Source of the DNA: an uncultured Alphaproteobacteria bacterium
GTDB taxonomy: Bacteria; Pseudomonadota; Alphaproteobacteria; Micavibrionales; UBA1664
Reading direction: 5' to 3'
Assembly: GCA_943789475.1 (NCBI GenBank)
Contig: CALSUG010000005.1
Location: forward strand, 90,694 to 154,693
Length of the DNA: 64,000 nt
Under the pieces are notes generated by a model, which was not told the origin of the DNA, made no database searches, and saw only the letters and a program-made list of their open reading frames with translations. The translations under genes were made by a program, and so were the position numbers. This document shows, piece after piece, positions 31,220 through 62,218 of the stretch (the stretch's first letter is position 1; each line of letters opens with the position of its first letter).

Positions 31220-31221
31220 AT

Positions 31222-31838: not shown

Positions 31839-32015
31839 ATGACGAAAGCATACTCAATAGATGAATTTTGTAAATCATACGGAATTTCAAAAAGCTTTTT
31901 TTATAAACTAAAAAAGCAAGGTAAAGCTCCTGCAATAATGTCTGTCGGAAAGCGCACACTGATATCCAACGCATCGGCAATGGAATGGGAAAAACTTATG
32001 GAAGTTAGATCATAG
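31839..32015 (+). CDS. small HTH (excisionase/AlpA-like) DNA-binding protein
   Basis: 58-aa ORF found by hand: MTKAYSIDEFCKSYGISKSFFYKLKKQGKAPAIMSVGKRTLIS... RBS AAAGGAATATAAAA-ATG. Confidence 0.5.
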   Translation: MTKAYSIDEFCKSYGISKSFFYKLKKQGKAPAIMSVGKRTLISNASAMEWEKLMEVRS

Positions 32016-32037
32016 GTTTCCCCATTGAAAATTTTTC

Positions 32038-32205
32038 ATGCGATATTTAACTACAAAAGAAACAGCCCAATATTTGGGTGTTTCTATTCCCACACTTGCG
32101 AGGTGGAGAAAAAATAAAACAAGCCCTCCATATTTCAAAAAAGGTGGAATTATTCGTTATAGGCAGGATGATTTAGATGATTGGGCAACCGCTCACATGA
32201 GATAA
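32038..32205 (+). CDS. small HTH (excisionase-family, MerR-like) DNA-binding protein
   Basis: 55-aa ORF found by hand: MRYLTTKETAQYLGVSIPTLARWRKNKTSPPYFKKGGIIRYRQDDLDDW, the canonical excisionase-family HTH pattern. Confidence 0.6.
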   Translation: MRYLTTKETAQYLGVSIPTLARWRKNKTSPPYFKKGGIIRYRQDDLDDWATAHMR

Positions 32206-32320
32206 TAGACTATCAAGGCATATCAAATTGAACGGAAATTTTTCGCACATCAAAAATCGTTAAACCCCACGATATGCGGTCAATACAGAACCCTCTCGAA
32301 AACAACACTTATATAGTAAA

Positions 32321-32869
32321 ATGAAAACATCATATATTCACTCCACAAATCATTTAAGCAAAACTCAAGTCGAAAAATTATTTAAGGCTGGTGAAAAAGC
32401 ATTCGAATTAGATTGCCCATTGAGCCGCTTTATAACAATTCACTTTGATGATTATGCAGATCAAAAAAGACCACAAAAGTTTATTGTCGAATTTTTAAGC
32501 CATGCTCGAAAATGGTTAAAACGGCGCAATATTCCTGTTGCATATTTATACACTTTGGAAAATGGAAAAATAAAAGGGCTTCATGCTCACTTGCTAATAC
32601 ACATCCCCAACGGTTACCAAATCGAATTTAAAAGGGCTATGGCAGGCTGGCTTCCGTTTGAAGTAAAAAAACCTAAAGTAAAATTTAAAGGCATCCAATA
32701 CCCCCTCTATGATAAATTAACGCCATTTAATGGTTGTTACGGAACGCTACAATATATTTGCAAGGGGGTTGACCCGAAAGACACAACGTACGGAATAAAA
32801 CCTAAATACCAAAGAAAAATTATGGGTAGGCGTTGGGGGATATCTGAATTATTACTCACAAAGAAATAA
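32321..32869 (+). CDS. HUH-type rolling-circle replication/relaxase-like protein (putative)
   Basis: The three RCR motifs appear in the correct order: I RFITIHF, II GLHAHLLIHIP (HUH) and III GTLQYICKG (YxxK). Confidence 0.5.
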   Translation: MKTSYIHSTNHLSKTQVEKLFKAGEKAFELDCPLSRFITIHFDDYADQKRPQKFIVEFLSHARKWLKRRNIPVAYLYTLENGKIKGLHAHLLIHIPNGYQIEFKRAMAGWLPFEVKKPKVKFKGIQYPLYDKLTPFNGCYGTLQYICKGVDPKDTTYGIKPKYQRKIMGRRWGISELLLTKK

Positions 32870-33310
32870 TGACTTATCGGCTATCTGTAGGCGGGGGCAT
32901 AAAATTTGAGTTTTGATCATTTTTAGAAACCCTTATTTCTAGCCATTTTTGAGTTTTCTGATATCTTGAGAGGGGTATCAAAAAATGTACTTTTCGGACA
33001 TCTGTAGACCTCTATAAATTATGGGTTTGAAAATTTTATAAAAAATCTATCTCTTGCTATTCAAAACCACATGTCAGATACTTCATTTGATTGTTCTATA
33101 TTGGAATGATTGAGGCTTAAGAACCTCTTCAAACGCGGTTTATGACACTACCGTAAATGTGTCGCTACTCGATCTTTTGATCGGGTGGCGATGTCATGTC
33201 CAAGGCGTTAGCCCAAAAGCATCGCGCCATATCGTTTGAAATGGTTCTTAACACCCGATCACCATCGCAGAACATGCTTTGGTGATTTTTTTGTAATAAG
33301 GAGATTGGAA

Positions 33311-34237
33311 ATGGATGATACGACATCAAAAAATAAAAAAGCTAATAAAATTAATTGGACAATAGGAATCATATCATTACTCATTGCATCGTCGATGGTT
33401 GCTCCATCCAATGAAAGTGGTTCAATCATTAGTGCTATTTTCTTTTATCTGGTTGCTTTCATGACCATTCCTCCAATAGTCAAGTTTATTGAAGAGCGCA
33501 GAAGGCCAATTTTAAAAGGCAAAGCAAAAATTGGTGCAATTGTTATTTTTATACTTGCAGGCATTATCACAAGTCAAAATGCAAGTGATCTATCACCTTC
33601 ATTAAACGGACGATCTCTCAATGACAATCAAATAAAACTTATGAATCTCTTTTTAATAAATGACTATAACACGGCATGGTTGGGAGGCGATTCAGGCTTT
33701 AATAAAGATACTTGGGATAAAATTCTCGAAATAAATGGACGTGTTACAGCAAAATCAATTTTAAAAGATTTTAAACAAAATGAGGTTTCAGCTGTCAAAA
33801 AATATCAAGGTTTGTGGCGCGTTTCTGGAATAGTACAGGATATTGATGATAATATAACGGGTTCAACCGTTGCCTTGGATGGTGAGTTTTCATGGAGTGC
33901 ATTTAATGCCAAAATAAAAGATAAAAATACCGTCACCAATTATAGCAAAGGCGATAATGTTAAACTCATCTGCTCTGGAATTGATGAAACGATCTCTATT
34001 GTTTATGGCAATAACTGTAATGATTATGGTTCTTGGGTTAGCGAACAACTTCGAAAAATCAGCCAAAATCCAAAGCGTTACACTTCACACATATCTGATT
34101 CAAAAATTCATAGTGCTATAAATAAAATATTTGGATCAATTTCCTATATTGATGACACAAGTGAGTGCTACGTAAATGTACAATCGGATGGATGCCGTGC
34201 AGATTTATTATCTTCTTCTAAAAAAATAAGCGAATAA
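33311..34237 (+). CDS. membrane protein with OB-fold (tRNA_anti-like) extracytoplasmic domain
   Basis: RBS AAGGAG 8 nt before the ATG at 33311. Three TM helices, then ILKDFKQNEVSAVKKYQGLWRVSGIVQDID, which resembles the tRNA_anti-like OB-fold family. Confidence 0.5.
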   Translation: MDDTTSKNKKANKINWTIGIISLLIASSMVAPSNESGSIISAIFFYLVAFMTIPPIVKFIEERRRPILKGKAKIGAIVIFILAGIITSQNASDLSPSLNGRSLNDNQIKLMNLFLINDYNTAWLGGDSGFNKDTWDKILEINGRVTAKSILKDFKQNEVSAVKKYQGLWRVSGIVQDIDDNITGSTVALDGEFSWSAFNAKIKDKNTVTNYSKGDNVKLICSGIDETISIVYGNNCNDYGSWVSEQLRKISQNPKRYTSHISDSKIHSAINKIFGSISYIDDTSECYVNVQSDGCRADLLSSSKKISE

Positions 34238-34261
34238 AGTGAGCGTGGATTATTAAAAATA

Positions 34262-34780
34262 ATGTTACGTATTTTTTTATTGTTTACTCTTTTTTACTCA
34301 TTCTCATCTCATGCTGAAACAATGCCATACACCACCCAAATAAGAGGCAAACTGGATCGCGTTGTAGATGGCGACACTATTCGTATTCAAGGATATAAGG
34401 ATAGTTTTAGATTATATGGAATAAATGCTATTGAAGTTAATCAAACCTGTATATCTCATCATGGTAATGGCGAAAGAAAAGAAATTAATTATGGTCGAGT
34501 TGCCACAGAATTTTTAAAAAAGGAAATTCTGCACGATGATATGGATACAATAATAACATGTGATTTTAATGCTACTGGATATTATCAACGTCCATTGGCG
34601 ACGTGTTATGCACAAAATCAAATCTATAAGAAACTCAACCTCAACAAACTCATGGTCTTTCGTGGTCGTGCATTTGCTGATCATAAATATGCTAAAGATA
34701 GAGAATATTTGGCATTAGAGGCCATTGCAAAAAAGAATAATTGGGGTATGTGGCGTGGTAATATGAGGTGTAAAAGATAA
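34262..34780 (+). CDS. secreted staphylococcal-nuclease (SNase/thermonuclease) homologue
   Basis: Signal peptide MLRIFLLFTLFYSFSSHA. VVDGDTIRIQG...FRLYGINAIE...YYQRPLATCY...AIAKKNNWGMW follows the SNase pattern. The Ca-ligand Asp of GIDAPE is Asn here. Confidence 0.65.
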   Translation: MLRIFLLFTLFYSFSSHAETMPYTTQIRGKLDRVVDGDTIRIQGYKDSFRLYGINAIEVNQTCISHHGNGERKEINYGRVATEFLKKEILHDDMDTIITCDFNATGYYQRPLATCYAQNQIYKKLNLNKLMVFRGRAFADHKYAKDREYLALEAIAKKNNWGMWRGNMRCKR

Positions 34781-34877
34781 ATTAAGCCAGTAACTTTTAG
34801 AGCCTTTGTTCGCTTTTTTAATATTAACCAATAATGATAAATTTGACTTTTTGCACATCTGTATGGCATAAGAAAGC

Positions 34878-35126
34878 ATGACTAATAAGTATTTCAATGC
34901 TGTTAAGGGAGCTCTTGCTTATGAATTTAAGGGGGCTAATGAACCCGTAGGTGTTAATGTTGGTGATATGATCGCTATTCTTGCTGTTGCAGGCGCAATA
35001 ACGGCAGGTGCTTATTATTTAGCCACAAACAAGGATTCAATCATAGATGGGGTTCAAGAAACGTTTTCTATGGACGCGCAACAGGGCGCAAAGACGTTTT
35101 CGGCGCATACTCTGACCCTTGGATAG
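34878..35126 (+). CDS. hypothetical small membrane protein
   Basis: 82-aa ORF with one Gly/Ala-rich TM helix. Its 3' end overlaps the convergent 35068..35658 ORF by 59 nt, so one of the two ends is doubtful. Confidence 0.3.
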   Translation: MTNKYFNAVKGALAYEFKGANEPVGVNVGDMIAILAVAGAITAGAYYLATNKDSIIDGVQETFSMDAQQGAKTFSAHTLTLG

Positions 35127-35658
35127 ATTCGGGCTCTAAATCCTCTGGCCTTGTCACCGTCGTAACTTTATTGTTCTCACTTGGAAGTGTATATGCCAAT
35201 ACCGCGCCACCGATAACAGCCCCAATAAATCCAGCGCGGAAGTGAAATATAGCTTTTAAGGCATTTGATTTTTTATATTGATTTGCAAATTTCTTATTTT
35301 CTTTATCAAAACGAGGCAACGTTCTCATATCCATGCTATCTGCAATTAATTCGATATTATCTTTCTGGTCTAATGCATGTGATGAAAAGGCGTTGTAATA
35401 GTCTTTTTTAATTGTGTGCTTCACATGTGAATACAAAACCCCCGATACAGCAGAAAAAGCCAAAAATAGAGATGAAATAGTACCGCCGTTGAGTGCGCTT
35501 ATTACACTTCCGCCAATAACTGTCATTCCACCAACATAAACAGCATCTGCACGAAAATCTGTTTGGCACTCATTTGCTTTTTTAATGGCGTCATCTGAAA
35601 TTTTTTGCCATTGATCGGCAATATCTTTTTGTGTGTATTCATTCCCCATGAATAACAA
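35068..35658 (-). CDS. hypothetical membrane protein (glycine-zipper-like helices)
   Basis: 196-aa ORF with TM segments VYVGGMTVIGGSVISALNGGTISSLFLAFSAVSGVL and FIGAVIGGAVLAY. Confidence 0.45.
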   Translation of the reverse strand: MLFMGNEYTQKDIADQWQKISDDAIKKANECQTDFRADAVYVGGMTVIGGSVISALNGGTISSLFLAFSAVSGVLYSHVKHTIKKDYYNAFSSHALDQKDNIELIADSMDMRTLPRFDKENKKFANQYKKSNALKAIFHFRAGFIGAVIGGAVLAYTLPSENNKVTTVTRPEDLEPESIQGSEYAPKTSLRPVARP

Positions 35659-35868
35659 TTTAATATGTAAAAATTAAAAAATGATTAATAGGCGTAAAAA
35701 TTTAATTTGATAAAAAATTCACTACACTATAATCTTTAGTTATACATGCAATATCACATAGGAAATCGACTAAAGAAAATACACTTGGGGGCATAATTAG
35801 GGGCATAAAGTTAAATTTCTTTTAGTTAATCCATTTAAAATCAAATAAATAAAATAATTATTCGGTAG

Positions 35869-45629: not shown

Positions 45630-47825
45630 ATGAAGTCGGTATTTTTACGTGTAAAAAAATCAAAAGGTAATATTTTTGCTATGCTATTTGCAGCTGTCGG
45701 AATGACAGGTGTCCTTGGTGTCGTGGGGATGCAGACAGTGTCTGGACCGATTACCACGATCACAAAGGTAACGCAAAAAAATATTGTTGATACTGATTTG
45801 ATGACAAATGCCCGTATCGTTATTTTGAACGCAGGAATACAAGCCGCGGGCGGAGATTCAGATGGTGATAATTACGTTGAACCAGCGGCGCATAATACAA
45901 CATGTACGGCAAATCCAACGGGTGGTGGGTGTTTGCCAACGGATATTGGTGCGATTCAAACCGACCCATGGGGGACGTCATACGGATATTGTGTATGGGA
46001 TCATGGTTTAACAACAGGCTCCGCAAACAGATTAGAAGGTAAAGATAGTACCTCAGAACCCGTTATTGCGATTATTTCTGCGGGACGTGATAAAACATTC
46101 CAGACATCGTGTGAACCATTTGATGGTAGTGCACCAGAAGGATTACAACAAGTCGCAGGAAGTGACGACAGTGTTCGTATTTATTCGTATGACGCCGCGG
46201 TTGCAGGTGCAAATGGCCTGTGGCAATTAAAAACAAATGATCCAACAACGGCCGAAATCGTGAAGGATTTGGAAATTGGTACATTTGATGATGTTGCGGG
46301 TACAGGTTTTGGTTTTGATATTGGATCGGGTGAAAGTAAATTCCCGATTGTTTTTACAGACAATTTAAATGCATGGACATCGAACCATATTGCCGTGACA
46401 GGTGGCGTTCAATTGGATACACAAGCCAATGTGACCGCATGTGGTGCCGGTGATGCAGGGGCCATTCGTTATAATTCAGTAGCTGAAGTTATCGAGGTAT
46501 GTGACGGTGCTGGTGACTGGGATGGTGCGGATGAAACGGCGATCATTGACGAAGACGGCGATACAAAGGTTCAAGTCGAAGAAGGCGCCGACGACGACAC
46601 AATCCGTTTTGATACCGCGGGTACAGAGCGGATGGTTATTCATGATAGTGGTAAAGTTGGAATAGGTTCTAACAATACAACGAGCCATAAGCTCCTTGTT
46701 TCTTCATCAGGTGCAGATAATACTACTTTAGGGATTGCTGCAACTGGTACTGGTTACGCAGGGTTATATATTGATGCCATGAATGGCGATTTTGTAGGGA
46801 CCGATTATGGGATGTTGAATCAACGTGATGATGGTGTCTTACATCTAACGAATGCCGGCCCTAATAGTCTTCTTTTAAGGACGGATAATACCGATAGGGT
46901 TGATATTCAAGGTGATGGTGATGTTGCCGTTAACGGTACTGATTTATTCGTTGATGCATCTACAAATCGTGTTGGTGTGGGGACGATAACGCCTGAGAGA
47001 ACCTTAGATGTTGCTGGTGATGCACGTTTGCAACAAAATACTTATATTGGTACATCGGCGGATAATCACGGTTTAATTTCATACTCACCTAATATCGGTG
47101 GTGGTGAACCAGGGGTTATTTTACAAGGTGATACGGGTAAAGGCGTATTAATACGTGGTGATAATGGAGCCTCGACAGGTATGATTGTCAAAGTTAATGG
47201 CCGTGTTGGTATTGGAACGGTTTCTCCTGCCACAACTTTAGAGGTACAAGGAGGATCAATTTATCATCTGAACAGTGCTGGTACAGGGAGAGTTCGCCTT
47301 CATCATGGTACTTCATATGGTACAGTTGGTAGTGTTTCTAATACAAAATTTGCACTTAGAACGAATAATACGGATAAATTGACAGTATTGCCGGATGGTA
47401 ACGTGGGTATTGGTGAAATCAATCCCGATACACTTCTTGATGTTGACGGTCCGATCGAAATTGGCTCTGGTACATGTAATGTCAGTGGTCATGGTCGTTT
47501 GCAATATACGGCATTGGACAATATCCAATATTGTAATGGGGCGTCATGGCAAACAATTACGGGTTATGTCGACAGTTTGAATGATATTGGTGACGTTAAT
47601 GTTACGGGTGTTACAATTGGACAAACATTAATGTGGGATGGTACCGATTGGGTCGCGACAAGCACATTGAACGATGTTGGTACGGGTGATACTGACCTGT
47701 TGGTTGATAACGATAATGATACCAAGGTTCAGGTGGAAAAAAATGCGGATGAAGATTATATCCGTTTTGATACCGCGGGAAGTGAGCGTATGCACATCGC
47801 ACCAAAATGGTCGTATTGGTATTAA
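45630..47825 (+). CDS. pseudopilin-headed tail-fibre-like surface protein, N-terminal part (continues in another frame after 47807)
   Basis: N-terminus KKSKG-NIFAMLFAAVGMTGVLGVVGM (pilin/TadG-like hydrophobic leader). Also the GspG-like globular signature DPWGTSYGYCVW...VIAIISAGRDKTF, and the repeated motifs DGDTKVQVEEGADDDTIRFDTAGTERM and G.IRYN......E.CDG..W. Confidence 0.6.
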   Translation: MKSVFLRVKKSKGNIFAMLFAAVGMTGVLGVVGMQTVSGPITTITKVTQKNIVDTDLMTNARIVILNAGIQAAGGDSDGDNYVEPAAHNTTCTANPTGGGCLPTDIGAIQTDPWGTSYGYCVWDHGLTTGSANRLEGKDSTSEPVIAIISAGRDKTFQTSCEPFDGSAPEGLQQVAGSDDSVRIYSYDAAVAGANGLWQLKTNDPTTAEIVKDLEIGTFDDVAGTGFGFDIGSGESKFPIVFTDNLNAWTSNHIAVTGGVQLDTQANVTACGAGDAGAIRYNSVAEVIEVCDGAGDWDGADETAIIDEDGDTKVQVEEGADDDTIRFDTAGTERMVIHDSGKVGIGSNNTTSHKLLVSSSGADNTTLGIAATGTGYAGLYIDAMNGDFVGTDYGMLNQRDDGVLHLTNAGPNSLLLRTDNTDRVDIQGDGDVAVNGTDLFVDASTNRVGVGTITPERTLDVAGDARLQQNTYIGTSADNHGLISYSPNIGGGEPGVILQGDTGKGVLIRGDNGASTGMIVKVNGRVGIGTVSPATTLEVQGGSIYHLNSAGTGRVRLHHGTSYGTVGSVSNTKFALRTNNTDKLTVLPDGNVGIGEINPDTLLDVDGPIEIGSGTCNVSGHGRLQYTALDNIQYCNGASWQTITGYVDSLNDIGDVNVTGVTIGQTLMWDGTDWVATSTLNDVGTGDTDLLVDNDNDTKVQVEKNADEDYIRFDTAGSERMHIAPKWSYWY

Positions 47826-50800
47826 TCAAGATTTTGATACGACAGATAACGAAGCAACGGTTGCGATTACGGCATCGGCCGCAACATCAACAGGCGTTGC
47901 GATTAAAACAACAACGAATACGAATGCTGGTGCGGATCTTCATATGCATGCTTCAGGAGTGATCGCCGCGGATAATAATGTGACAGTGTTGATAGATGGT
48001 GAAAATTCTTCTACAGTTAGATATTTTGAAATTTCGAAAGATGCAAAGTTTAGGGATGGATCGCAAGAGCGTTTAATGCGTATTCAAGAAAATGGTCAAG
48101 CTCGTTTTTATAGTGATAGTTCTGCTATCATTAATTTAGAGCATACTTCGGCATCTGGCCAAAATAGGTATAGTCAATATGAAATGGGAGATCAAGACAC
48201 ACCTGTAACATGGGCTATGGGAGCGTATAGCCAAAACAATTTAACAGCATCAGCTCGAAATGATTTTTATATTTGGCAATATGTAGATCAAGCAAATTCG
48301 TCGGTTAATGTTCCTCGATTTTTGATTGATGATACAGGAAAAATTGGAATAGGAACTAATGCCCCTGCGGCTGCTCTTGATGTTTCTGGTACGGATGCTA
48401 TCTTGTTCCCACGTGGTATTGTGGGTAATCGTCCTGCGGCGCCTGTAAACGGTATGATGCGTTATAATACGGCCACGGGTAAATTTGAGGCGTACCAAGG
48501 TGGCGCATGGCAAGATATTTTGACATCGGGTGCGGGTAATGTTGCACACGCACTTGCCGATGCCGATAATGATACAAAAGTTCAGGTGGAAGAAAGTGCG
48601 GATGATGACACAATCCGTTTTGATACTGCGGGCGTTGAGCGGATGCGTATTGAGTCAAATGGTTGGGTTGAGATTAATAATCCGGCTCTGTCAAATGATG
48701 CAATTCAGTTTGAACCTCAATCTGGGTTTCACAGAATTGCAATGAACGATTTACGTCTTTATGATTGGAACCAAGCGATTTCGGGTGATTTGGCACGATT
48801 TAATAATGGTAAAATCGCATTGGGTGGTATTGACCAAGATGGTAGAGTAACGATTACAGGTGCAGCAGATATTGGCGCGGCAAATACCGTGGGGCAAGGT
48901 GCTCTTGTTATTCAGGATTCTGCTGGAGATGCGTCTGGTTGGAAATTACGCATAGATCCAAATGAAATGCAGGTTTCGAATAATGGTTCTGCATCAAGTT
49001 TACATTTAAATGCATTCGGTGGGGATGTATTGATTGGTAATGGATCTAACAATCTGGATTTGAAATCAGGGAAAATTGTCAATGTGGGTAATCCAACCGC
49101 GGCTCAGGACGCTGCGACAAAAAATTATGTTGATAATGCGATCGCGGGTGGTGATACTGATACAATCGATGGGTTGGATTCAACACAGTTCATTCGCTCT
49201 GATGCAGATGATAATGTGACGGGGCATACCGAATGGCAAGACAATAAAAGTGTCAGATTTGGTAATGGTGCAGATTTTCGTATTTGGCATGATGGTACTA
49301 ACCATGTTATGCGGAGCTATAAACATGGCGCACAAGTTTATCTTCAAGGTGAAGATGCTGGGGGAACAAATCGTACTATGATCTGGTTTGATCCTGATAA
49401 TGAAACACGTCTTTATTATCGAGGTGCTGAAAAGTTGAATACCCGCAGTAATGGTATTGAGGTGACTGGTGAAATATATGGTGCCGGATCGCATTACTAC
49501 GGTGATAATAAAGAAATCATTGGTTATAGTGATAGCTGGCTTCGTTTAAATCAAGCAGGTCATTTTTCAAGTGGTGTGTACACACCAGGTTTGTTCAGAG
49601 CCGACAATGGATTTCAAGTTGACGGCAATACGATTATTAACGGTTCAGGTACTGTAACTGGATCACGTGTTGGTAGTGGTGTTAATGGTGACAATATAAC
49701 TGATGGCACGATTGATAGTTCGGAAATACAAAATAATACGATCACTGAAGACGATATTATTGACAGCTTTAAGGCTAGGGACGCAGATAAGCTTGATGGG
49801 CTCAGTTCTGGTAGTTTCATTCGCTCTGATGCAGATGATAATGTGACGGGGCATACCGAATGGCAAGACAATAAAAGTGTCAGATTTGGTAATGGTGCAG
49901 ATTTTCGTATTTGGCATGATGGTAGTAACCATGTTATGCGGAGCTATAAACATGGCGCACGTTGGTATTTACAGGGTGAACATGCGGGGGGAACAAATCG
50001 TAATATGATTATCGCAGACCCTGATGATAGTGTTTACATGTATTATCAAAATGCCGAAAAACTGAGAACATCGCCCTCTGGTGTAGACGTTAGAAATGCA
50101 GTTAATGTTATTGGCGCGACATCAGGTAACGAAGGTGGTGAAATGCGTCTCTATACTTCTGATCCATATGATAGCACGTATGATTATTATCGTATTGATG
50201 CATTTCAGGATGATTTCCGAATTGGGCGGACATCGATTGGTGATGACTTTGTTTTGAAAAATACTGGTAACATTGGTATCGGTACGGATACGCCAGCAGA
50301 AAGACTTCACGTCAATGGTAATATTCTTGTGTCGCCTCATCATCCATATCTCAGGCTGCATGGCCCTGTAGGTAATGCATCTTTGGATATGAATGGCCCT
50401 AACGCCACAAAATCTTTCAGGATGCACTATGGTAATTCTGCTGACAATGTAGTTCGTTTTGGGCGCTTTTCGAATAATTTTATTTCTTGGGAGGCAAATC
50501 CAGTTGTGTTTGATCTGGATGCACCAAACGCCACCTTGAAATTAAGTGGAACTGGTAATGTCGGAATTGGAGTTATTGGGGCAGCCCCATCGCAAAAACT
50601 TCACGTCAATGGTAATATTCTTGCGTCGTCTTATCTGCACTCATCCGACCGTCGTTTGAAAAAGGATATCCGTGATATCGATAATCCATTTGACTTGTTG
50701 GATGCGATCCACGGTAAACATTTTGGATGGAAAAAGGATGATAAGACAGAATATGGTGTGATCGCACAAGATGTTCAAAGTGTGATGCCAGAAGCGGTTG

Positions 50801-51042
50801 TTGAAAGTGGCGATGGCTTTTTGGCCGTTGAATATGACCAATTGATTGCACCAGTGATCGAGGCGGTGAAACATGTTCGCGATATGGTTGTTGATGTGAT
50901 TGGCAAGGTTGAATCGTTGCTATCTCGTGTTGATGCATTGGAAAAAGAAAATGAGCGATTGCGCTCTGAAATCGATGCGTTAAAGTCATCAAGTGAAACA
51001 ATTTTGAATCGTCTGGAGGCGTTAGAAAAAAATGAAAAATAA
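47674..51042 (+). CDS. tail-fibre-like protein with C-terminal peptidase-S74 intramolecular chaperone domain (C-terminal part of the same gene; the real frame entry is near 47806)
   Basis: From NGRIGIN (47806) the repeat pattern of the upstream ORF continues. There are two T7-like fibre modules (FIRSDADDNVTGHTEWQDNKSVRFGNGADFRIWHDG.NHVMRSY...). The C-terminus reads SDRRLKKDIRDI...GVIAQDVQSVMPEAV...VEYDQLIAPVIEAVK, followed by a coiled coil. Confidence 0.65.
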   Translation: MLVRVILTCWLITIMIPRFRWKKMRMKIISVLIPREVSVCTSHQNGRIGINQDFDTTDNEATVAITASAATSTGVAIKTTTNTNAGADLHMHASGVIAADNNVTVLIDGENSSTVRYFEISKDAKFRDGSQERLMRIQENGQARFYSDSSAIINLEHTSASGQNRYSQYEMGDQDTPVTWAMGAYSQNNLTASARNDFYIWQYVDQANSSVNVPRFLIDDTGKIGIGTNAPAAALDVSGTDAILFPRGIVGNRPAAPVNGMMRYNTATGKFEAYQGGAWQDILTSGAGNVAHALADADNDTKVQVEESADDDTIRFDTAGVERMRIESNGWVEINNPALSNDAIQFEPQSGFHRIAMNDLRLYDWNQAISGDLARFNNGKIALGGIDQDGRVTITGAADIGAANTVGQGALVIQDSAGDASGWKLRIDPNEMQVSNNGSASSLHLNAFGGDVLIGNGSNNLDLKSGKIVNVGNPTAAQDAATKNYVDNAIAGGDTDTIDGLDSTQFIRSDADDNVTGHTEWQDNKSVRFGNGADFRIWHDGTNHVMRSYKHGAQVYLQGEDAGGTNRTMIWFDPDNETRLYYRGAEKLNTRSNGIEVTGEIYGAGSHYYGDNKEIIGYSDSWLRLNQAGHFSSGVYTPGLFRADNGFQVDGNTIINGSGTVTGSRVGSGVNGDNITDGTIDSSEIQNNTITEDDIIDSFKARDADKLDGLSSGSFIRSDADDNVTGHTEWQDNKSVRFGNGADFRIWHDGSNHVMRSYKHGARWYLQGEHAGGTNRNMIIADPDDSVYMYYQNAEKLRTSPSGVDVRNAVNVIGATSGNEGGEMRLYTSDPYDSTYDYYRIDAFQDDFRIGRTSIGDDFVLKNTGNIGIGTDTPAERLHVNGNILVSPHHPYLRLHGPVGNASLDMNGPNATKSFRMHYGNSADNVVRFGRFSNNFISWEANPVVFDLDAPNATLKLSGTGNVGIGVIGAAPSQKLHVNGNILASSYLHSSDRRLKKDIRDIDNPFDLLDAIHGKHFGWKKDDKTEYGVIAQDVQSVMPEAVVESGDGFLAVEYDQLIAPVIEAVKHVRDMVVDVIGKVESLLSRVDALEKENERLRSEIDALKSSSETILNRLEALEKNEK
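49189..49334 (+). repeat. intragenic direct repeat, copy 1
   Basis: 146 nt, identical to 49816-49961 except for one base (c/g). Confidence 0.9.
49816..49961 (+). repeat. intragenic direct repeat, copy 2
   Basis: Offset from copy 1 is 627 nt (209 codons, in frame). Confidence 0.9.
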
Positions 51043-52117
51043 AACATCTTTCTTTTTCCTGTTATGTGGATTTGTGATGATTTTATCACATGGGGTGATG
51101 GCCGCATGTTCATCACCATCTGGCTCTGCATCACAAACACGATATGACTTTGGTGCAAATAAATACTATTTCTGTGATAATACGGATTGGGTTGAAATTG
51201 GCGGCGGCGGCGGCGGTGATGGCGGCAGTGGATCTTGTGGATTGCCATGGGGGGGAACCATTGCAGATGGCGCGAACGTGACCGCGTATCAGCAAGCCTT
51301 ACCAAGTGGAGTAGCATGTGTTTCAGAAACCCGTATTTGCAGTAGCGGTGCTTTGTCAGGGTCTTATTTAAATCCTAGTTGTAACAATGGGTGTGCAGGT
51401 GGAACGATGGTTAGCTGGTCAAATTGTTCTGCAATTCGAATAAATGCAACACATGGCCAGAATAGAAACGTATCAGATCCAAGTCCAGGATATTGTCAGT
51501 CTGGTTGGTATGGTAGTCGTTCGTTTAGTTGTTCTAATGGAAGTTGGAGTGCTACAAATAGTGGAACTTGTTCATACCAAAGCATTGAGAGAGATTGTGG
51601 CAGTTGTTTTGCGGCGGGTAGTACGGTTTTGATGGCGGATGGTACGCATAAAGCAATTGAAGATATCAAAATCGGTGAATATTTGATGGGATCGGATGGC
51701 AAACCAACACGTGTGGTCGAATATGACCGCCCGATTATGGAATATCGCGATGGCGACCCACAACGTTTGATTTCGATCAATGATAAAGGGTATTTAATGA
51801 CGAATAACCACCCTGTTTTAACAACAGATGGATGGAAGGCCCTGTGGGTTGACGGTGCAGAATCCGAAGCCTATGATTTGTTAAAAGGCAAAGTATCTCA
51901 ATTGGATATTGGTGATGAAATCATCATGGCTGGCGATAAAACAATGATTGTTGAAACAATCAATGTTTTACAACATACCGAGGATACACGCCTTTATAAC
52001 TTTGTCTTGGACGGTGACCCTGTGTTTTATGTCGATGGTATGGCGGTGATGAGCTTTGTTCCGGATAAGGCGGGTAAATACACGGCTCACCTCGAACATG
52101 AAGGTGAACCGAAATAG
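51032..52117 (+). CDS. secreted Cys-rich protein with C-terminal Hint (Hedgehog/intein-like) autoprocessing domain
   Basis: Signal peptide MKNKTSFFFLLCGFVMILSHGVMA. Cys-rich N-terminal half carrying the same RY(D/N)...FCD..W motif as the fibre gene, and a poly-Gly linker. Hint block A CFAAGSTVLMADGTHKAIEDIKIGEYL and block B TNNHPVLTTDGW are present, with no terminal HN. The start overlaps the fibre gene stop by 11 nt. Confidence 0.65.
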   Translation: MKNKTSFFFLLCGFVMILSHGVMAACSSPSGSASQTRYDFGANKYYFCDNTDWVEIGGGGGGDGGSGSCGLPWGGTIADGANVTAYQQALPSGVACVSETRICSSGALSGSYLNPSCNNGCAGGTMVSWSNCSAIRINATHGQNRNVSDPSPGYCQSGWYGSRSFSCSNGSWSATNSGTCSYQSIERDCGSCFAAGSTVLMADGTHKAIEDIKIGEYLMGSDGKPTRVVEYDRPIMEYRDGDPQRLISINDKGYLMTNNHPVLTTDGWKALWVDGAESEAYDLLKGKVSQLDIGDEIIMAGDKTMIVETINVLQHTEDTRLYNFVLDGDPVFYVDGMAVMSFVPDKAGKYTAHLEHEGEPK

Positions 52118-59911: not shown

Positions 59912-59999
59912 ATTTTCATGACTAAAGACACCAATATTATTTTTAAGGTGTTCAAAGAGTTAATTACCCTTCTCGAAAGGAACTATATTTGGTTAATTT

Positions 60000-60251
60000 T
60001 TAACCACCGACGATTGCAGAGAAAAAAGATATTTGATCTTCATCATTAATTGTAAACTGAGGCGGTTTGATTTCGTTATTAACGGCGGTGTATATAATAT
60101 TACGTTTTTTAAATACAGTTGCACATTCGGGTTTGTTTTCCTCTAGATAATCCATAAGATTTTCTATGTTTTTTATATGGTTAGGAAGTTTTATTAAATC
60201 TTCATGTTTTCCTGTTTTTTCGTGTAACCATGTTAAATACTGTATTTTCAT
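60000..60251 (-). CDS. MoaD/ThiS-family ubiquitin-like sulfur-carrier protein (C-terminal GG)
   Basis: 83 aa ending ...TAVNNEIKPPQFTINDEDQISFFSAIVGG*. This aligns by eye with the E. coli MoaD C-terminus AAVNQTLVSFDHPLTDGDEVAFFPPVTGG. Confidence 0.7.
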   Translation of the reverse strand: MKIQYLTWLHEKTGKHEDLIKLPNHIKNIENLMDYLEENKPECATVFKKRNIIYTAVNNEIKPPQFTINDEDQISFFSAIVGG

Positions 60252-60263
60252 GTTTTGTGCTCC

Positions 60264-61007
60264 CTATGTTGACGCAGAAAGTTTTTTATCTATTGCGACT
60301 TTTAAATTGTGCCAATAAATGGTGTTTTCGAATTCAAATTTTTTATTATTAGTGTATTGATCGAGTTGAACCGTTTTCAGTAACGAAATAGCGTCTTCTT
60401 TTTTTTGTTCAATTTTATTAAAGGGAAGCCATTTTCGTAGTCCATTTGTTTCACTTTTATAATCTTTTGCGAAGTGACGTATGCCGGTGTCATAGAAACG
60501 TTCTTTATAAAAACAGTTTTTGTAAAAATAATTTAATTTTACTTTCAGTTCACTAGAGATGATGGTTTCATTTTCTGCTTTTTGTAATGTTTTACGAATG
60601 TCGACCATAGCATCAGAGAGTGGTTTATAACCTAATTCCTGTGGAGAATGTAAAATTGCAACTTCATCATCATCTTCAATAACACCATGGGTGTAATCGT
60701 GATATATTTCGCCAACACCGATCATGCCAAAGTTGTCTAATTCAGCAGCACGTAAAGCCCCCATGCTGGCTGCGCCAAATATTTTTATATTTTGGGACAG
60801 GAGATATAGAATTTCCTTGTGCCAAGGAGATGGTATGCGTTCAAAATTACCATCAATTAATCCTATGATTCTAGGTTTATATTTTTTGTAAGCTTGATAC
60901 ATGTCACCTTGCATAGCCGGGGGTAAGTAGGTGGCGTTATTAAGGTGTTTTTGCGCCTCTTCAATTGAAATGCTAGGCCCTCTAAAAATTACTATGTCAC
61001 TTTGCAT
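60264..61007 (-). CDS. tfuA: TfuA-like protein
   Basis: IFRGPSI, LPPAMQGDMY, IGLIDGNFERIPSPWHKEILYLL, FGAASMGALRAAELDNFGMIGVGEIY and DDDEVAILH are the TfuA family pattern. Confidence 0.8.
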   Translation of the reverse strand: MQSDIVIFRGPSISIEEAQKHLNNATYLPPAMQGDMYQAYKKYKPRIIGLIDGNFERIPSPWHKEILYLLSQNIKIFGAASMGALRAAELDNFGMIGVGEIYHDYTHGVIEDDDEVAILHSPQELGYKPLSDAMVDIRKTLQKAENETIISSELKVKLNYFYKNCFYKERFYDTGIRHFAKDYKSETNGLRKWLPFNKIEQKKEDAISLLKTVQLDQYTNNKKFEFENTIYWHNLKVAIDKKLSAST

Positions 61008-62218
61008 GCGCCAACTCCATATTGTTCATAAAATTTTAATCCTCTTGCACCTAATAAACGTTTTCCTGGTGCTGTAATGCCTTCAGCGCCAGGTATAACA
61101 ATTTTTACAACTGGAATATCGTATTTTATTTTTGTTAAATTAGCGTAGAACGCATTGTCTAGTCCTGCCTTTTCGAGTTGGCATAGTGTGTAGTCTTGAT
61201 CCTCTTCTAAACTTTTAAAGTCAGTGCAGAGAATGTCGTTAAATGATTTTAATGTATCTTTGTCGACGTTTTTTAACTCGTTTAACCATGAGTTGTAGAT
61301 ATCGTTAGATGTTTCATTCTCGTAAACTTCATGATATTGATCGTCTCTTGCTCCTGCAATAAAAGTTACACGACTTTGGGCGGCCTCTGTAATCGCTCTG
61401 GAAATGGCGATTATTTTGTTGGGGTGTGTACCACTTCCGTAAGCTGGACGAATACCAGTATTATCATTAGATATAATTTTACAAAGAAAAGTCGGAATGC
61501 CAATGTCATTTGTGATATCCCATATTCCAACCAGAATATTTTTGTCTATTAGTTTACTAAGAATAGTTTTCAAATAGTTATCTGTAATTGTGTCCGTATC
61601 AATTCTATTCTTATTGTGTAACTCTGGTGGAGTTAATTGCCATAGAGCGAGACAATCTCTCTCGATTACTTCATAGAGGCCATGGTTGATGGCCTCTGTA
61701 AGGGTGTTACCAGAGGCTAATCCATTACTGTCTGCAATGAAATATCCAGCATCTTTAGGAGTAGGAATCGTGAATTCAGTATGTATTAGTTCATAGGGAA
61801 GCCAAATAGGTGAATTGTTTCTAACACTGTGACATTCAACCCATTGGATGATTGTTTTTTCATTGAAATCCTTCTGAGAAGATCTAGACAAGAGGTGATA
61901 ATCATATTGGTTTTTTAACGCATCATGACTGTCTGTAATAGTTTTTAATTCTATATTTTCGGAATGAAAACTTTCTATTGATTCCATGATGCCGGATACT
62001 TTTGCGGCATTAACAGAGTGACCTTTTCCTTGTGAGATGGCTAAAGATTTTGAATTTGGACGACAAACACCAATCACGGGAATTCCTATATTATCAAGCC
62101 CTGTAAGATTGGCGACACGTGTGATGCCCATATCTTTAAAAAAGGGGGATATTTTTTTTAATGTTTGTTCCGGGGCACAGTGTCTGTGCGTGCCATTTGT
62201 GTATTGTTTTAATTGCAT
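60992..62218 (-). CDS. ycaO: YcaO-family ATP-dependent amide-activating enzyme (TfuA-associated type)
   Basis: HRHCAPEQTL, GITRVANLTGLDNIGIPV, CRPNS, SQGKGHSVNAAKVSGIMESIESFHSE and SNGLASGNTLTEAINHGLYEVIERD. Overlaps tfuA by 16 nt. Confidence 0.85.
   Translation of the reverse strand: MQLKQYTNGTHRHCAPEQTLKKISPFFKDMGITRVANLTGLDNIGIPVIGVCRPNSKSLAISQGKGHSVNAAKVSGIMESIESFHSENIELKTITDSHDALKNQYDYHLLSRSSQKDFNEKTIIQWVECHSVRNNSPIWLPYELIHTEFTIPTPKDAGYFIADSNGLASGNTLTEAINHGLYEVIERDCLALWQLTPPELHNKNRIDTDTITDNYLKTILSKLIDKNILVGIWDITNDIGIPTFLCKIISNDNTGIRPAYGSGTHPNKIIAISRAITEAAQSRVTFIAGARDDQYHEVYENETSNDIYNSWLNELKNVDKDTLKSFNDILCTDFKSLEEDQDYTLCQLEKAGLDNAFYANLTKIKYDIPVVKIVIPGAEGITAPGKRLLGARGLKFYEQYGVGACKVT

What the first reader, a model, noticed from the sequence alone, without database searches (positions are those of the whole stretch)
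45630..51042. Giant chimeric gene: pseudopilin-like head, phage tail-fibre repeats and an S74 intramolecular-chaperone tail, with no prophage around it
Seen in the sequence:
- ORFs 45630..47825 and 47674..51042 are one roughly 1,800-codon reading frame interrupted once.
- The N-terminus is KKSKG / NIFAMLFAAVGMTGVLGVVGM, a pilin/TadG-like hydrophobic leader without the canonical Glu+5.
- It is followed by DPWGTSYGYCVW...VIAIISAGRDKTF. This is the DPWG...S.G.DG signature I know from GspG-type pseudopilins.
- Downstream are three copies of D(G/N)DTKVQVE.xAD(D/E)D.IRFDTAG.ERM.I, near 46549, 47706 and 48562.
- There are at least three copies of G..RYN......E.(C/Y).G..W, and two T7-like fibre modules.
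- The C-terminus has SDRRLKKDI...GVIAQDVQSVMPEAV...VEYDQLIAPVIEAVK. This is the Ser-x4-Lys self-cleaving chaperone domain of endosialidase and tail spikes (Ser codon at 50644-50646), followed by a coiled coil.

Established knowledge: S74 domains drive trimerisation and are then auto-cleaved from phage fibres and spikes.

Inference: this is a host-encoded trimeric fibre anchored through a pilin-like helix, either in the membrane or at a pilus tip. I do not recognise that domain combination as a described system. The flanking genes are housekeeping (acetoacetyl-CoA synthetase) and no other phage structural genes are present.
Basis: partly seen in the sequence, partly recalled or inferred. Interest (0 to 1): 0.8.

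Follow-up and report, generated by a model that had tools for sequence, protein, structure and literature searches.

The report
Pilin-headed, phage-like bacterial fibre adhesin
A Micavibrio-like bacterium carries a 1,803-codon chromosomal gene for a phage-tail-fibre-like, self-trimerising, self-cleaving fibre, and its unannotated N-terminal "head" starts with the same leader and helix as the pilin-like subunits of a lineage-specific type IV filament machine, which suggests how predatory alphaproteobacteria might display swappable adhesive fibres.

Summary
The sequence observations hold. The two ORFs are one 1,803-codon gene. The single interruption is one extra A in the run at 47804-47807; another assembly of the same genome reads straight through. 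The C-terminus is a Peptidase_S74 chaperone domain (E 1e-16; Ser1672/Lys1677 in SDxxxK). The stalk consists of phage tail-fibre modules. No prophage surrounds the gene.

The head (aa 1-225) matches no Pfam or NCBIfam pilin family. Two AlphaFold models, one at pLDDT 94, match nothing in PDB or BFVD. Similarity to GspG is weak. The head defines a large unannotated family (1,079 clusters at 50% identity) found mainly in Micavibrio-type Alphaproteobacteria. It always sits at the N-terminus, is often tandemly duplicated, and carries varied tips (S74, lectins, Lcl_C, Hint).

Its leader and helix (basic leader, Gly, Asn, conserved hydrophobic helix, no Glu+5) match in register (P 3e-10) those of an abundant family of pilin-sized proteins. 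Those proteins are encoded in a conserved operon with an A24 peptidase, secretin, ATPase and platform. A homologous operon on a Rhodoferax plasmid ends with a head-fibre gene.

Most likely reading: a fibre adhesin exported or anchored through that filament system. It is analogous to Bdellovibrio MAT fibres and to PilV/CofB tip pilins. It is a new variant of known kinds.

The parts
45630..51042 (+). Whole fibre gene: 1,803 codons plus stop once one A of the run at 47804-47807 is removed. An AGGGGA Shine-Dalgarno sequence lies about 13 nt upstream.
47804..47807 (+). A4 homopolymer that breaks the frame in the window. It is A3 in the ENA assembly of the same genome. Most likely an assembly artefact.
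45630..45668 (+). Short basic leader MKSVFLRVKKSKG ending in Gly13 (100% conserved in 168 family members). Residues before the Gly are unconserved.
45669..45833 (+). Asn14 (88%; Ser 11%) followed by a position-specifically conserved hydrophobic helix that continues into an amphipathic helix (AlphaFold helix aa 15-68). There is no Glu at +5. It matches in register the N-terminus of small G|N pilin-like subunits.
45834..46304 (+). Globular head core (aa 69-225). It carries the motifs GGDxDxDG..VEP, GGG.LP, DPWG..YGYCVWDHG, ISAG.DKTFQT.C and GSDD..Y.Y. Cys121 and Cys161 are invariant. The model is an antiparallel sheet packed on the helix, with pLDDT 94. No PDB or BFVD structure matches it.
46458..46520 (+). 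First RYN...C.G..W-type motif (GAIRYNSVAEVIEVCDGAGDW). Further copies lie at 47493-47549 and 48451-48510.
46554..46640 (+). Repeat 1 of D[GN]DTKVQVE..AD[DE]D.IRFDTAG.ERM.I.
47712..47798 (+). Repeat 2 of the same motif. The frameshift site lies just 3' of it.
48565..48651 (+). Repeat 3 of the same motif.
46965..50607 (+). Stalk of tail-fibre-type modules with six G-[IV]-G-[IV]-G-x(2-5)-P-x(3-4)-L-x-V 'capping loop' motifs at 46965-47012, 47199-47246, 47397-47444, 48337-48384, 50266-50313 and 50554-50607. It matches PHROG tail-fibre families and the Bdellovibrio MAT fibre structures 8OJN and 8OL4.
   Evidence: motif defined in PMC10769870
49090..49134 (+). NPTAAQDAATKNYVD motif. In relatives this is the segment that gives sub-threshold Phage_T7_tail hits.
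49168..49467 (+). Tandem module copy 1 (aa 1180-1279).
49537..49590 (+). WLRLNQ...GVYTPG motif of the kind shared with the constant region of the R64 PilV tip adhesin. In relatives this module gives Shufflon_N hits.
49795..50094 (+). Tandem module copy 2 (aa 1389-1488), 76% identical to copy 1.
50644..50799 (+). Peptidase_S74 intramolecular chaperone domain. The predicted nucleophile Ser1672 is at 50644-50646 and Lys1677 at 50659-50661, in SDRRLK. Cleavage would release a 132-aa, 14.9-kDa fragment.
50863..51039 (+). C-terminal coiled coil after S74. Unlike the syntenic orthologues, this protein has no C-terminal membrane anchor.
51032..52117 (+). Downstream gene overlapping the fibre stop by 11 nt, with a GGAGG about 13 nt upstream. 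It has a signal peptide (possibly a lipoprotein), an RYD...YFCD..W motif, a Cys-rich module and a Hint domain. It probably belongs to the same transcription unit.

Best explanation
The gene encodes a long homotrimeric, phage-tail-fibre-like surface fibre made by the bacterium for its own use.

Shown:
- It is one 1,803-aa ORF.
- Its C-terminus is an S74 intramolecular-chaperone domain with the SDxxxK Ser/Lys motif.
- Its stalk is built from tail-fibre modules and capping loops.
- Its first ~225 residues are the founding module of a large, unannotated, mainly alphaproteobacterial family. That family is expanded and tandemly duplicated in Micavibrio-type genomes and carries many different C-terminal tips.
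- The head's leader and first helix are of the same G|N class as small pilin-like proteins. Those proteins are encoded next to an A24 prepilin peptidase, a secretin, a GspE-type ATPase and a GspF-type platform.

Inferred mechanism:
1. The basic leader stays in the cytoplasm.
2. The conserved hydrophobic helix inserts in the inner membrane and the rest is translocated.
3. The three S74 domains nucleate trimer folding from the C-terminus and then cut themselves off at Ser1672, exposing the distal tip. In about 20% of relatives a C-terminal tail anchor holds the chaperone in the membrane during this step.
4. The short A24 peptidase may remove the leader at Gly13|Asn14.
5. The three N-terminal helices are then taken up by the type IV filament machine, as a trimeric initiator or tip subunit like CofB/TcpB or PilV, which carries the fibre through the secretin to the surface.

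Function: recognising and holding other cells' surfaces. In a Micavibrio-like epibiotic predator that means prey, by analogy with the Bdellovibrio MAT fibres.

My sub-confidences:
- Intact S74 trimeric fibre: 0.9.
- Export or anchoring through the G|N-type filament system: about 0.5.
- Tip location specifically: about 0.35.
- Prey or cell adhesion role: about 0.5.

The overall confidence given is for the statement as a whole.
For: Gene integrity.

S74 domain:
- Pfam E 1.2e-16.
- phmmer hits to the phage S16 fibre tip 6F45 and to MyRF 7DC3 across SSDRR[LI]KKDI.

Fibre modules:
- PHROG tail-fibre families down to E 3e-28.
- MAT structures 8OJN and 8OL4.
- Six capping loops.

Head family:
- 1,079 clusters with E<=1e-3 and 729 with E<=1e-30. 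The head is always N-terminal, on proteins of 216-5,767 aa.
- Found in Micavibrio and other Alphaproteobacteria.
- Tandem arrays of 2-3 paralogues.
- Tips include S74 (21 of 73), Lcl_C, C-type lectin, Gp10_C, Gp34_trimer and Hint.

Leader:
- Sharp conservation boundary at Gly13 (100%) and Asn14 (88%), followed by a conserved helix. A Sec signal peptide would not be conserved in this way.

Small G|N family:
- At least 3,052 proteins, 119 of 120 with G|N[VA]LFLILIAVALFAALSYAVTQS.
- In three genomes they lie in an operon with Peptidase_A24, Secretin, T2SSE and T2SSF.
- hhalign of the head N-terminus against the small-subunit N-terminus: score 41.6, P 3e-10. The shuffle null is 8.9 +/- 2.1 (max 17.5) and the score against GspG is 18.5.

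Rhodoferax plasmid:
- Its operon is homologous gene by gene: ATPase 1e-80, secretins 1e-60, platform 1e-26, small subunits down to 4e-12.
- It ends with a 1,049-aa protein carrying the head core (E 6e-29) followed by a Phage_tail_APC chaperone.

Other:
- Both termini obey the positive-inside rule in orthologues that have a C-terminal anchor.
- Precedents: CofB homotrimer at a pilus tip, CpaL, MAT fibres.
Against: - No Pfam or NCBIfam pilin, pseudopilin or Tad family is detected in this protein.
- Foldseek finds no pilin for either head model.
- Glu+5 and Phe/Met+1, which are canonical for type IV pilins, are absent.
- No filament-machinery gene lies in the 64-kb window or within +/-6 kb of any of 80 head genes. 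I could not show that this genome carries the G|N operon.
- The Rhodoferax homologue has an ordinary Sec signal peptide instead of the G|N helix. There the head core could be a docking or secretion module rather than a pilin.
- Similarity between the head and the small subunits is confined to the first ~40 residues. The globular parts score 18.3 against a null of 12.6 +/- 2.6. It could reflect only a shared peptidase or membrane-insertion signal.
- Passage of a trimer of about 3 x 176 kDa through a secretin is assumed, not shown.
- Predation by this organism is inferred from relatedness to Micavibrio MAGs (56% head identity plus synteny).
Confidence: 0.5

Rival explanations
1. MAT-like surface fibre that does not depend on any pilus machine. 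The N-terminal helix is just a signal-anchor or a membrane or envelope attachment device, the globular head binds a cell-envelope component, and the resemblance to pilin-like subunits is limited to a shared membrane-insertion or peptidase signal.
For: - No pilin family or fold match.
- No machinery genes near any of 80 head genes.
- Similarity to the small subunits is restricted to ~40 residues.
- Bdellovibrio MAT fibres also use a conserved N-terminal domain whose anchoring partner is unknown.
Against: - The leader and helix are conserved position by position from an invariant Gly onward.
- They match the operon-encoded subunits in register, far above shuffles and above the GspG score.
- The Rhodoferax head-fibre gene lies inside the filament operon.
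- An inner-membrane anchor alone gives no route across the outer membrane.
Confidence: 0.25
2. Secreted cargo of a T2SS-like machine. The G|N operon is a type II secretion system, and the head core is the recognition module of a fibre that is released into the medium or onto target cells rather than remaining a filament subunit.
For: - The Rhodoferax homologue has a cleavable-looking Sec signal peptide plus the head core.
- The Micavibrio genome paper describes a T2SS lacking annotated GspC/G/H/K.
- The ATPase and platform are GspE/GspF-like.
Against: - In the alphaproteobacterial family the head keeps the subunit-type G|N helix, which a soluble T2SS substrate would not need.
- The secretin is PilN (type IVb)-like.
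Confidence: 0.1
3. Mating or cell-contact adhesin of a mobile element, functionally like R64 PilV, rather than a predation factor.
For: - In cultured Hyphomicrobiales the head genes sit beside VirD4/TraG, ArdC, resolvase, HipA, ParB and MmeI genes.
- The Rhodoferax copy is on a conjugative plasmid.
- The single IMG/VR hit is flanked by resolvase, ArdA and Fic genes.
- Some relatives share a fibre module with PilV.
Against: - This gene and its syntenic orthologues lie between housekeeping genes (AACS upstream in L006, L007 and L012), with no transfer genes nearby.
- In Micavibrio-type genomes the neighbours are housekeeping genes.
Confidence: 0.07
4. Degenerate prophage or tailocin tail-fibre remnant, or a dead gene (the frameshift is real).
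For: - The window sequence has the frameshift.
- At another homopolymer site a Logan contig agrees with the window rather than with ENA.
- Strong PHROG tail-fibre hits.
- A small integrase/Rep island lies 10-17 kb upstream.
Against: - An intact ORF exists in another assembly.
- All three differences between the assemblies are homopolymer indels, with no substitutions.
- 1,078 codons remain open after the shift, with an intact catalytic motif.
- There are no capsid, tail or baseplate genes in 64 kb.
- The head is absent from 50,697 phage genomes.
- The locus is syntenic in related MAGs.
Confidence: 0.05

Closest known systems
Bdellovibrio bacteriovorus MAT (mosaic adhesive trimer) fibres (Caulton et al. 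2024, PMC10769870)
   Same: - Host-encoded, multi-copy family of long trimeric fibres in a predator.
- An invariant N-terminal module with variable tips.
- A subgroup ends in an S74 domain with SDxxxK.
- The same G-x-G-x-x-P-x-x-x-L capping loops.
- Direct sequence hits to MAT crystal structures 8OJN and 8OL4.
   Different: - As described, the MAT N-terminal module is a beta-rich ~130-aa domain after a Sec signal peptide. Here it is a G|N leader, a long helix and an alpha/beta domain. I did not compare the sequences directly.
- Different phylum.
- The proposed link to a type IV filament operon is specific to this family.
R64/IncI1 PilV, the tip adhesin of the type IVb thin pilus
   Same: - A pilin-type N-terminus fused to tail-fibre-like adhesin modules.
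- It is the last gene of the pilus operon, the position the head-fibre gene holds in Rhodoferax.
- Some relatives share a PilV constant-region module (Shufflon_N E 3.7e-16).
- The secretin of the G|N operon is PilN-like.
   Different: - PilV has a canonical prepilin leader with Glu+5, no S74 domain and no head core.
- PilV varies its tip through shufflon inversion. Here there is no recombinase, and the repeats are direct.
CofB/TcpB minor pilins of type IVb pili (PMC6048534)
   Same: An N-terminal pilin module plus C-terminal beta-rich domains that homotrimerise and sit at the pilus tip. This is the structural precedent for a trimeric, fibre-bearing tip subunit. They also partner with a secreted protein encoded alongside (compare the coupled Hint-domain gene here).
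   Different: No sequence or detectable fold relationship. They have canonical prepilin signals, are much shorter and lack an S74 domain.
Caulobacter CpaL / TadG-type 'minor pilin-like' proteins (PMC11870444)
   Same: Alphaproteobacterial. A predicted pilin-like module (long helix plus a small sheet) is fused to a large functional domain and modelled at a pilus tip.
   Different: CpaL carries a vWA domain and lies in a Tad locus. No Pfam Tad or TadE match is found in the head.
Phage S74 fibres and spikes (K1F endosialidase, T5 and S16 fibres) and eukaryotic MyRF
   Same: The same C-terminal chaperone/protease domain and motif. Like MyRF, about 20% of family members place a membrane anchor after the S74 domain.
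   Different: Here the N-terminus is a cellular anchoring module instead of a virion-attachment or DNA-binding domain. This particular protein lacks the C-terminal anchor.

Membership tests
Peptidase_S74 intramolecular-chaperone fibres | Profile match to PF13884 above the curated cut-off | tested here: met
   61.2 bits against a cut-off of 22, E 1.2e-16, aa 1672-1723
Peptidase_S74 intramolecular-chaperone fibres | Ser-Lys dyad in an S-D-x-x-x-K motif at the start of the domain | tested here: met
   SDRRLK with Ser1672 and Lys1677. It aligns with SSDRRIKKDI of 6F45. The motif is as defined in PMC10769870.
Peptidase_S74 intramolecular-chaperone fibres | Trimerisation and autoproteolysis releasing the C-terminal fragment | not testable with these tools
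   Needs expression of the wild type and S1672A. The predicted fragment is 132 aa, 14.9 kDa.
Type IV pilins / pseudopilins (class III signal peptide) | Profile match to N_methyl (PF07963/TIGR02532) or another pilin family | tested here: not met
   No hit at E<=10 for the head or for its first 71 aa. None recurs among 73 relatives.
Type IV pilins / pseudopilins (class III signal peptide) | Short basic leader ending in an invariant Gly, followed by a conserved ~20-residue hydrophobic helix | tested here: met
   Gly13 is 100% conserved, upstream residues are unconserved and downstream residues are conserved position by position.
Type IV pilins / pseudopilins (class III signal peptide) | Phe/Met at +1 and Glu at +5 | tested here: not met
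   +1 is Asn (88%) or Ser (11%). +5 is Met, Ala or Thr.
Type IV pilins / pseudopilins (class III signal peptide) | Pilin fold (a long alpha1 helix packed on an antiparallel sheet) recognisable against solved pilins | tested here: inconclusive
   The predicted secondary structure fits: helix aa 15-68 plus 5 strands, with pLDDT 94 for aa 36-200. Foldseek returns no pilin and nothing with E<0.6 in PDB.
Type IV pilins / pseudopilins (class III signal peptide) | Genetic association with a prepilin peptidase, ATPase, platform and secretin | tested here: inconclusive
   Not in the window, nor within +/-6 kb of 80 head genes. It is met for the Rhodoferax homologue and for the small subunits that share the leader class.
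GspG-type major pseudopilin (PF08334 T2SSG) | Profile match over the DPWG...Y...SxGxDG core | tested here: inconclusive
   - Nothing for this protein.
- Sub-threshold hits in relatives (E 0.14 and 0.034).
- hhalign on the globular parts alone: score 30.9, P 1.8e-4, probability 48%, against a shuffle null of 12.4 +/- 2.8.
- The full-length score is explained by the TM helix alone.
TadG / Tad (PF13400) or TadE (PF07811) pseudopilins | Profile match to the Tad N-terminal domain | tested here: not met
   No hit at E<=10 on the N-terminal 71 aa. It is not among the recurrent families in 73 relatives.
Bdellovibrio MAT fibres | Long trimeric fibre with capping loops, with either an S74 tip or an alternative tip, in a multi-copy family | tested here: met
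Bdellovibrio MAT fibres | Conserved beta-rich ~130-aa N-terminal domain directly after a Sec signal peptide | not tested
By description it differs from the helix-plus-alpha/beta head here.
Shufflon PilV adhesins | Shufflon_N constant region and invertible C-terminal segments with an Rci recombinase | tested here: not met
   No Shufflon_N hit in this protein. In relatives the hit lies in a fibre module before S74, not in the head. No recombinase is adjacent.
Prophage tail module | Neighbouring capsid, tail, baseplate or terminase genes | tested here: not met
   None in 64 kb. The head is absent from phage genomes.

The most novel reading that the evidence does not exclude
Micavibrio-type Alphaproteobacteria (and some mobile elements) have an undescribed type IV filament subtype. 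Its subunits use a Gly|Asn leader without Glu+5. The machine is primed or tipped by any one of a genome-wide arsenal of interchangeable 'head' proteins. Each head carries a phage-derived trimeric fibre that is folded by an S74 chaperone, which in some members is tethered to the membrane like MyRF. This would be a pilus-displayed, swappable receptor-binding repertoire that determines which cells the predator can grip.
Probability: 0.35. Interest if true: 0.85.

Novelty: new variant of a known kind. Interest (0 to 1): 0.7.

Why it matters
How epibiotic predators such as Micavibrio recognise and hold prey is unknown. The only described predator fibre adhesins are the Bdellovibrio MAT proteins, and how those are anchored is itself unsolved.

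This locus offers three things:
- A concrete, testable anchoring route: a pilin-class leader and helix tied to a defined filament operon.
- A family of more than 1,000 sequence clusters with no annotation and no solved fold.
- A natural example of phage receptor-binding modules grafted onto a cellular filament system.

It also suggests that the pseudopilins reported as missing from the Micavibrio T2SS (PMC3189940) may simply be the unrecognised G|N proteins. That last point is my inference and was not tested on M. aeruginosavorus itself.

Tried and rejected
- **Pfam and NCBIfam on the whole protein, the head and the first 71 aa:** no pilin, Tad or T2SS family.
- **PDB sequence-profile search with the head alignment:** nothing at E<=10.
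- **Full-length hhalign to GspG:** it looked colinear, but the score (26.1) equals a null in which only the TM helix is kept (26.2). I rejected it as evidence.
- **Shufflon_N hits in relatives:** they first looked like a pilin link for the head, but they map to a fibre module before S74.
- **Machinery search:** E. coli Gsp and R64 Pil proteins as queries against the window and the 80 loci found no hits.
- **Canonical G[FM]xxxE prepilin motifs in neighbouring ORFs:** none.
- **Globular head versus the globular part of the small G|N subunits:** not significant.
- **Promoter and terminator scan:** counts are about what shuffles give, except for a modest excess of terminator-like sites. Not informative.
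- **Exact-product look-ups of the two half-ORFs:** not on record.
- **R64 under accession AP005147:** absent from the collection. I used NC_005014 instead.
- **Model coordinates:** not available locally, so I could not measure the Cys121-Cys161 distance or the sheet topology.

Full report
**1. The observation**

ORFs 45630..47825 and 47674..51042 are present as described. They overlap around the run CCAAAAT at 47803-47809. Dropping one A joins them into 1,803 codons and restores the third-repeat context ...IRFDTAGSERMHIAPNGRIGIN. That context parallels the other two copies...ERMVIHDSGKVGIG and ...ERMRIESNGWVEIN.

An ENA assembly of what is evidently the same genome (contig_25129, 64,874 bp) is 99.986% identical to window 41032-62116. 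It has no substitutions and three single-base homopolymer indels, at 43579, 47804 and 54037. It has A3 at this site, and its called 1,803-aa product equals my corrected translation. Neither half-ORF exists as a product in any indexed assembly.

I therefore treat the gene as intact. One caveat: a Logan contig agrees with the window rather than ENA at 54037, so only reads can settle which assembly is right at 47804.

All the listed motifs are present within a few bases of the stated positions. The Ser codon of SDRRLK is at 50644-50646.

**2. The C-terminus and stalk**

Peptidase_S74 matches aa 1672-1723 at E 1.2e-16 (61 bits against a cut-off of 22). Weak leucine-zipper-type hits follow it. phmmer against PDB sequences aligns SSDRRLKKDI... 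with the phage S16 long-tail-fibre tip (6F45) and with the MyRF ICA domain (7DC3). Cleavage at Ser1672 would release a 132-aa, 14.9-kDa fragment.

PHROGs gives many tail-fibre families. The strongest hits (3e-28) lie over the S74 end, but others extend along the stalk.

Six G-[IV]-G-[IV]-G...P...L.V motifs match the capping loop that Caulton et al. defined for Bdellovibrio MAT fibres and MyRF. Two MAT crystal structures (8OJN, 8OL4) are direct sequence hits.

The two "T7-like" modules are a real tandem duplication at 49168-49467 and 49795-50094 (76% aa identity). The T7 label itself rests only on the NPTAAQDAATKNYVD motif, which gives sub-threshold Phage_T7_tail hits in relatives.

**3. The surroundings**

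Precomputed gene calls and my Pfam scans show housekeeping genes on both sides:
- Upstream: argS, scpAB and tatA, an intimin-type adhesin, nuoA-D, maf, infA, aroA, an APH kinase, ubiA and acetoacetyl-CoA synthetase.
- Downstream: a Hint-domain protein, three unknown genes, MlaC, a MacB-type ABC system and ThiS-TfuA-YcaO.

A small low-GC island at about 28.7-35.7 kb has split integrase fragments, a rolling-circle Rep, NinB-like and SNase genes, but no structural phage genes. The fibre is not in a prophage.

**4. The head as a family**

The first 302 aa find 28 close relatives. A profile of these finds 1,079 clusters at 50% identity (729 at E<=1e-30) among 1.8 billion representatives. The head is always at the extreme N-terminus, on proteins of 216 to 5,767 aa.

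In species-representative genomes the head occurs mostly in Micavibrio and other alphaproteobacterial MAGs. The best match is Micavibrio sp. UBA1664 at 56%. That copy and two other MAGs share the divergent AACS neighbour, so they are syntenic orthologues. Their fibres are nevertheless 998 and 1,384 aa long with different module content.

Many loci have two or three head genes in tandem.

What follows the head varies. Among 73 members:
- S74 occurs in 21.
- The others include Lcl_C, C-type lectin, Gp10_C, Gp34_trimer, endostatin/NC10, Hint and Cys-rich modules.

In cultured Hyphomicrobiales (Brucella gallinifaecis, Falsochrobactrum, Hyphomicrobium, Afifella, Methylobacterium) the gene lies among mobile-element genes: VirD4/TraG, ArdC, resolvase, HipA, ParB and MmeI. 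In Micavibrio-type genomes the neighbours are housekeeping genes.

No source gives the family a name other than "hypothetical protein".

**5. Is the head a pilin?**

The direct tests are negative or weak:
- Pfam and NCBIfam give nothing.
- The head profile finds no PDB sequence.
- AlphaFold gives a 54-residue N-terminal helix packed on a five-stranded antiparallel sheet (pLDDT 79). A truncated model (aa 36-200) reaches pLDDT 93.6 and pTM 0.88. Foldseek finds nothing significant for either in PDB or BFVD, and no pilin at all.
- A real GspG alignment, seeded from E. coli gspG, aligns end to end with the head. The full-length score (26.1), however, equals a null in which only the TM helix is kept (26.2).
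- The globular parts alone score 30.9 (P 1.8e-4, probability 48%) against 12.4 +/- 2.8 for column shuffles. Three relatives give sub-threshold T2SSG hits.

So the DPWG...SxGxD resemblance is more than chance, but it is not a membership.

The Shufflon_N hits in three relatives (E 3.7e-16) turned out to lie in a fibre module upstream of S74. They are not in the head.

**6. The leader**

Across 168 members the residues before Gly13 are variable and basic. Conservation then starts abruptly:
- Gly 100%, Asn 88% (Ser 11%), [IV], Phe 82%, x, x, Leu 83%, Phe 91%, [GA], Ala 82%, Val 80%.
- Further along: Gly27 93%, then Gly39-Pro40 at 97% and 100%.

This is the layout of a class III (prepilin-type) signal, not of a Sec signal peptide. 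However, +1 is Asn and +5 is not Glu.

**7. The link to a filament machine**

A 207-aa ORF beside one head gene (L029) begins ...KQRG|NVLFLILIAVALFAALSYAV. Its family has at least 3,052 members of 190-270 aa, with no Pfam domain, from the same lineages. After a short variable leader, 119 of the 120 listed members carry the almost invariant G|N[VA]LFLILIAVALFAALSYAVTQS, although they are only 35-45% identical overall. That is the conservation pattern of type IV filament subunits.

In three unrelated assemblies this gene sits in one conserved operon:
- a short Peptidase_A24 (167-174 aa), transcribed divergently;
- a response regulator;
- a secretin (PilN-like);
- an Ig-like ~530-aa protein;
- a T2SSE ATPase;
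- a T2SSF platform;
- two unknown genes;
- the G|N subunit;
- a second small subunit.

The head's first 40 residues match those of the small subunits in register. The score is 41.6 (P 3e-10), against shuffles of 8.9 +/- 2.1 (max 17.5) and a GspG score of 18.5. The globular parts do not match significantly.

Independently, the only plasmid in PLSDB with the head core (Rhodoferax ferrireducens T118, conjugative) has it in a 1,049-aa fibre protein (E 6e-29). That protein is the last gene of an operon homologous gene by gene to the alphaproteobacterial one: ATPase 1e-80, secretins 1e-60, platform 1e-26, small subunits down to 4e-12. A Phage_tail_APC fibre-assembly chaperone follows it. There the head core follows a Sec-type signal peptide rather than a G|N helix.

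**8. Synthesis**

- Shown: an intact S74 fibre gene, a large unannotated head family with swappable tips, a subunit-class leader and helix, and one operon-embedded homologue.
- Inferred: leader cleavage by the short A24 peptidase, uptake of the three helices of the S74-made trimer by the filament machine (as with the CofB homotrimer at a pilus tip, and the CpaL model), surface display, and adhesion to other cells.

In 12 of 59 S74-bearing members, including both syntenic orthologues, a hydrophobic tail anchor with trailing basic residues follows the coiled coil. With the basic N-terminal leader, both ends obey the positive-inside rule. The fibre is therefore extracytoplasmic, and the released chaperone would remain in the membrane as in MyRF. 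The window's protein ends with the coiled coil only.

The main weaknesses are these:
- No machinery genes lie near the head genes.
- I have no proof that this genome has the operon.
- The Rhodoferax signal peptide is of the Sec type.
- There is no structural match to pilins.

**9. Comparison and novelty**

Host-encoded S74 fibres (MAT) and pilin modules fused to adhesins (PilV, CofB/TcpB, CpaL, S. sanguinis PilB/C) are both known. A 2025 review lists only the Bdellovibrio MAT family as predator fibre adhesins. The Micavibrio genome paper reports a T2SS with no annotated GspC/G/H/K.

I found no description of this head family, of the G|N subunit class, or of an S74 fibre on a pilin-class leader. 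I rate it a new variant of known kinds, with interest 0.7.

Noticed in passing
window 51032-52117 (+): A 361-aa gene overlaps the fibre stop by 11 nt. It has a signal peptide ending ...GVMAAC (possibly a lipobox), an RYD...YYFCDNTDW motif like the fibre's RYN motifs, a Gly run, a Cys-rich module and a Hint domain (Hom_end_hint E 4.7e-13). A homologue (E 1e-85) follows the head gene in L021. The Cys-rich module recurs as C-terminal tip repeats in head proteins of Afifella marina (L020) and in P0028. One family member has a fused Hint domain.
   Followed up: partly
L006 5980-8976, L007 3372-7526, and 12 of 59 S74-bearing family members: After S74 and the coiled coil these proteins end in a hydrophobic tail anchor followed by basic residues (for example ...WMMVLLMGIIGSFITFTVVRRRV). 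This is a MyRF-like arrangement in which the cleaved chaperone would stay in the membrane. The window's protein lacks it.
   Followed up: partly
L092, L093, L094 (about 600-11,500 in each): A conserved, apparently undescribed type IV filament operon in Micavibrio-type Alphaproteobacteria. It has a short A24 peptidase, a response regulator, a PilN-like secretin, an Ig-like protein, a GspE-like ATPase, a GspF-like platform, two unknown genes and two small subunits with G|N or G|S leaders lacking Glu+5. A hybrid histidine kinase lies alongside. These may be the 'missing' pseudopilins of the Micavibrio T2SS noted in PMC3189940.
   Followed up: partly
window 24903-25220 (+): A stand-alone 105-aa ORF with only the N-terminal (CxxC...CxxC) domain of a prepilin peptidase (PF06750). 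It ends in three stop codons and no A24 catalytic domain follows, so it is a truncated remnant or a separate small protein.
   Followed up: partly
window 13690-16053 (+): A ~780-aa inverse-autotransporter-type adhesin (IAT_beta barrel plus beta-helix). It is a second large surface-adhesin candidate in the window.
   Followed up: no
window ~28700-35700: A low-GC (0.34-0.38) island next to trmD. It has two adjacent Phage_integrase fragments (93 and 149 aa, apparently a split gene), HTH_17, a weak NinB match, a rolling-circle Rep (REP_ORF2-G2P), and tRNA_anti-like and SNase genes. It has no virion genes, so it is probably a decayed small integrative element.
   Followed up: no
window 43579 and 54037: Two further 1-base homopolymer differences from the ENA assembly (T4 vs T5, and T7 vs T8). 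At 54037 a Logan contig agrees with the window. Homopolymer lengths in this record should not be trusted for frame calls.
   Followed up: yes
L092 15848-18886, and about 2 kb upstream of the head gene in 15 loci (for example L062 3536-4345): DotI/IcmL-like genes are present, and in L092 also DotH/IcmK-like and TrbI-like genes. These are type IVB secretion core components, in genomes of a group reported to lack type IV secretion.
   Followed up: no
L010, L011, L015, L016, L020, L023, L044, L095: In cultured Hyphomicrobiales and in one IMG/VR contig, head-fibre genes are cargo of mobile elements. A divergent resolvase lies directly upstream, together with ArdC/ArdA, VirD4/TraG, HipA, ParB, MmeI and Fic genes. 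In L023 a separate 315-aa ORF with an S74 domain follows the head gene, which may be a split gene.
   Followed up: partly
window ~59990-62218 (-): A ThiS-TfuA-YcaO gene cluster, the arrangement typical of thioamide or azoline peptide-modification systems.
   Followed up: no
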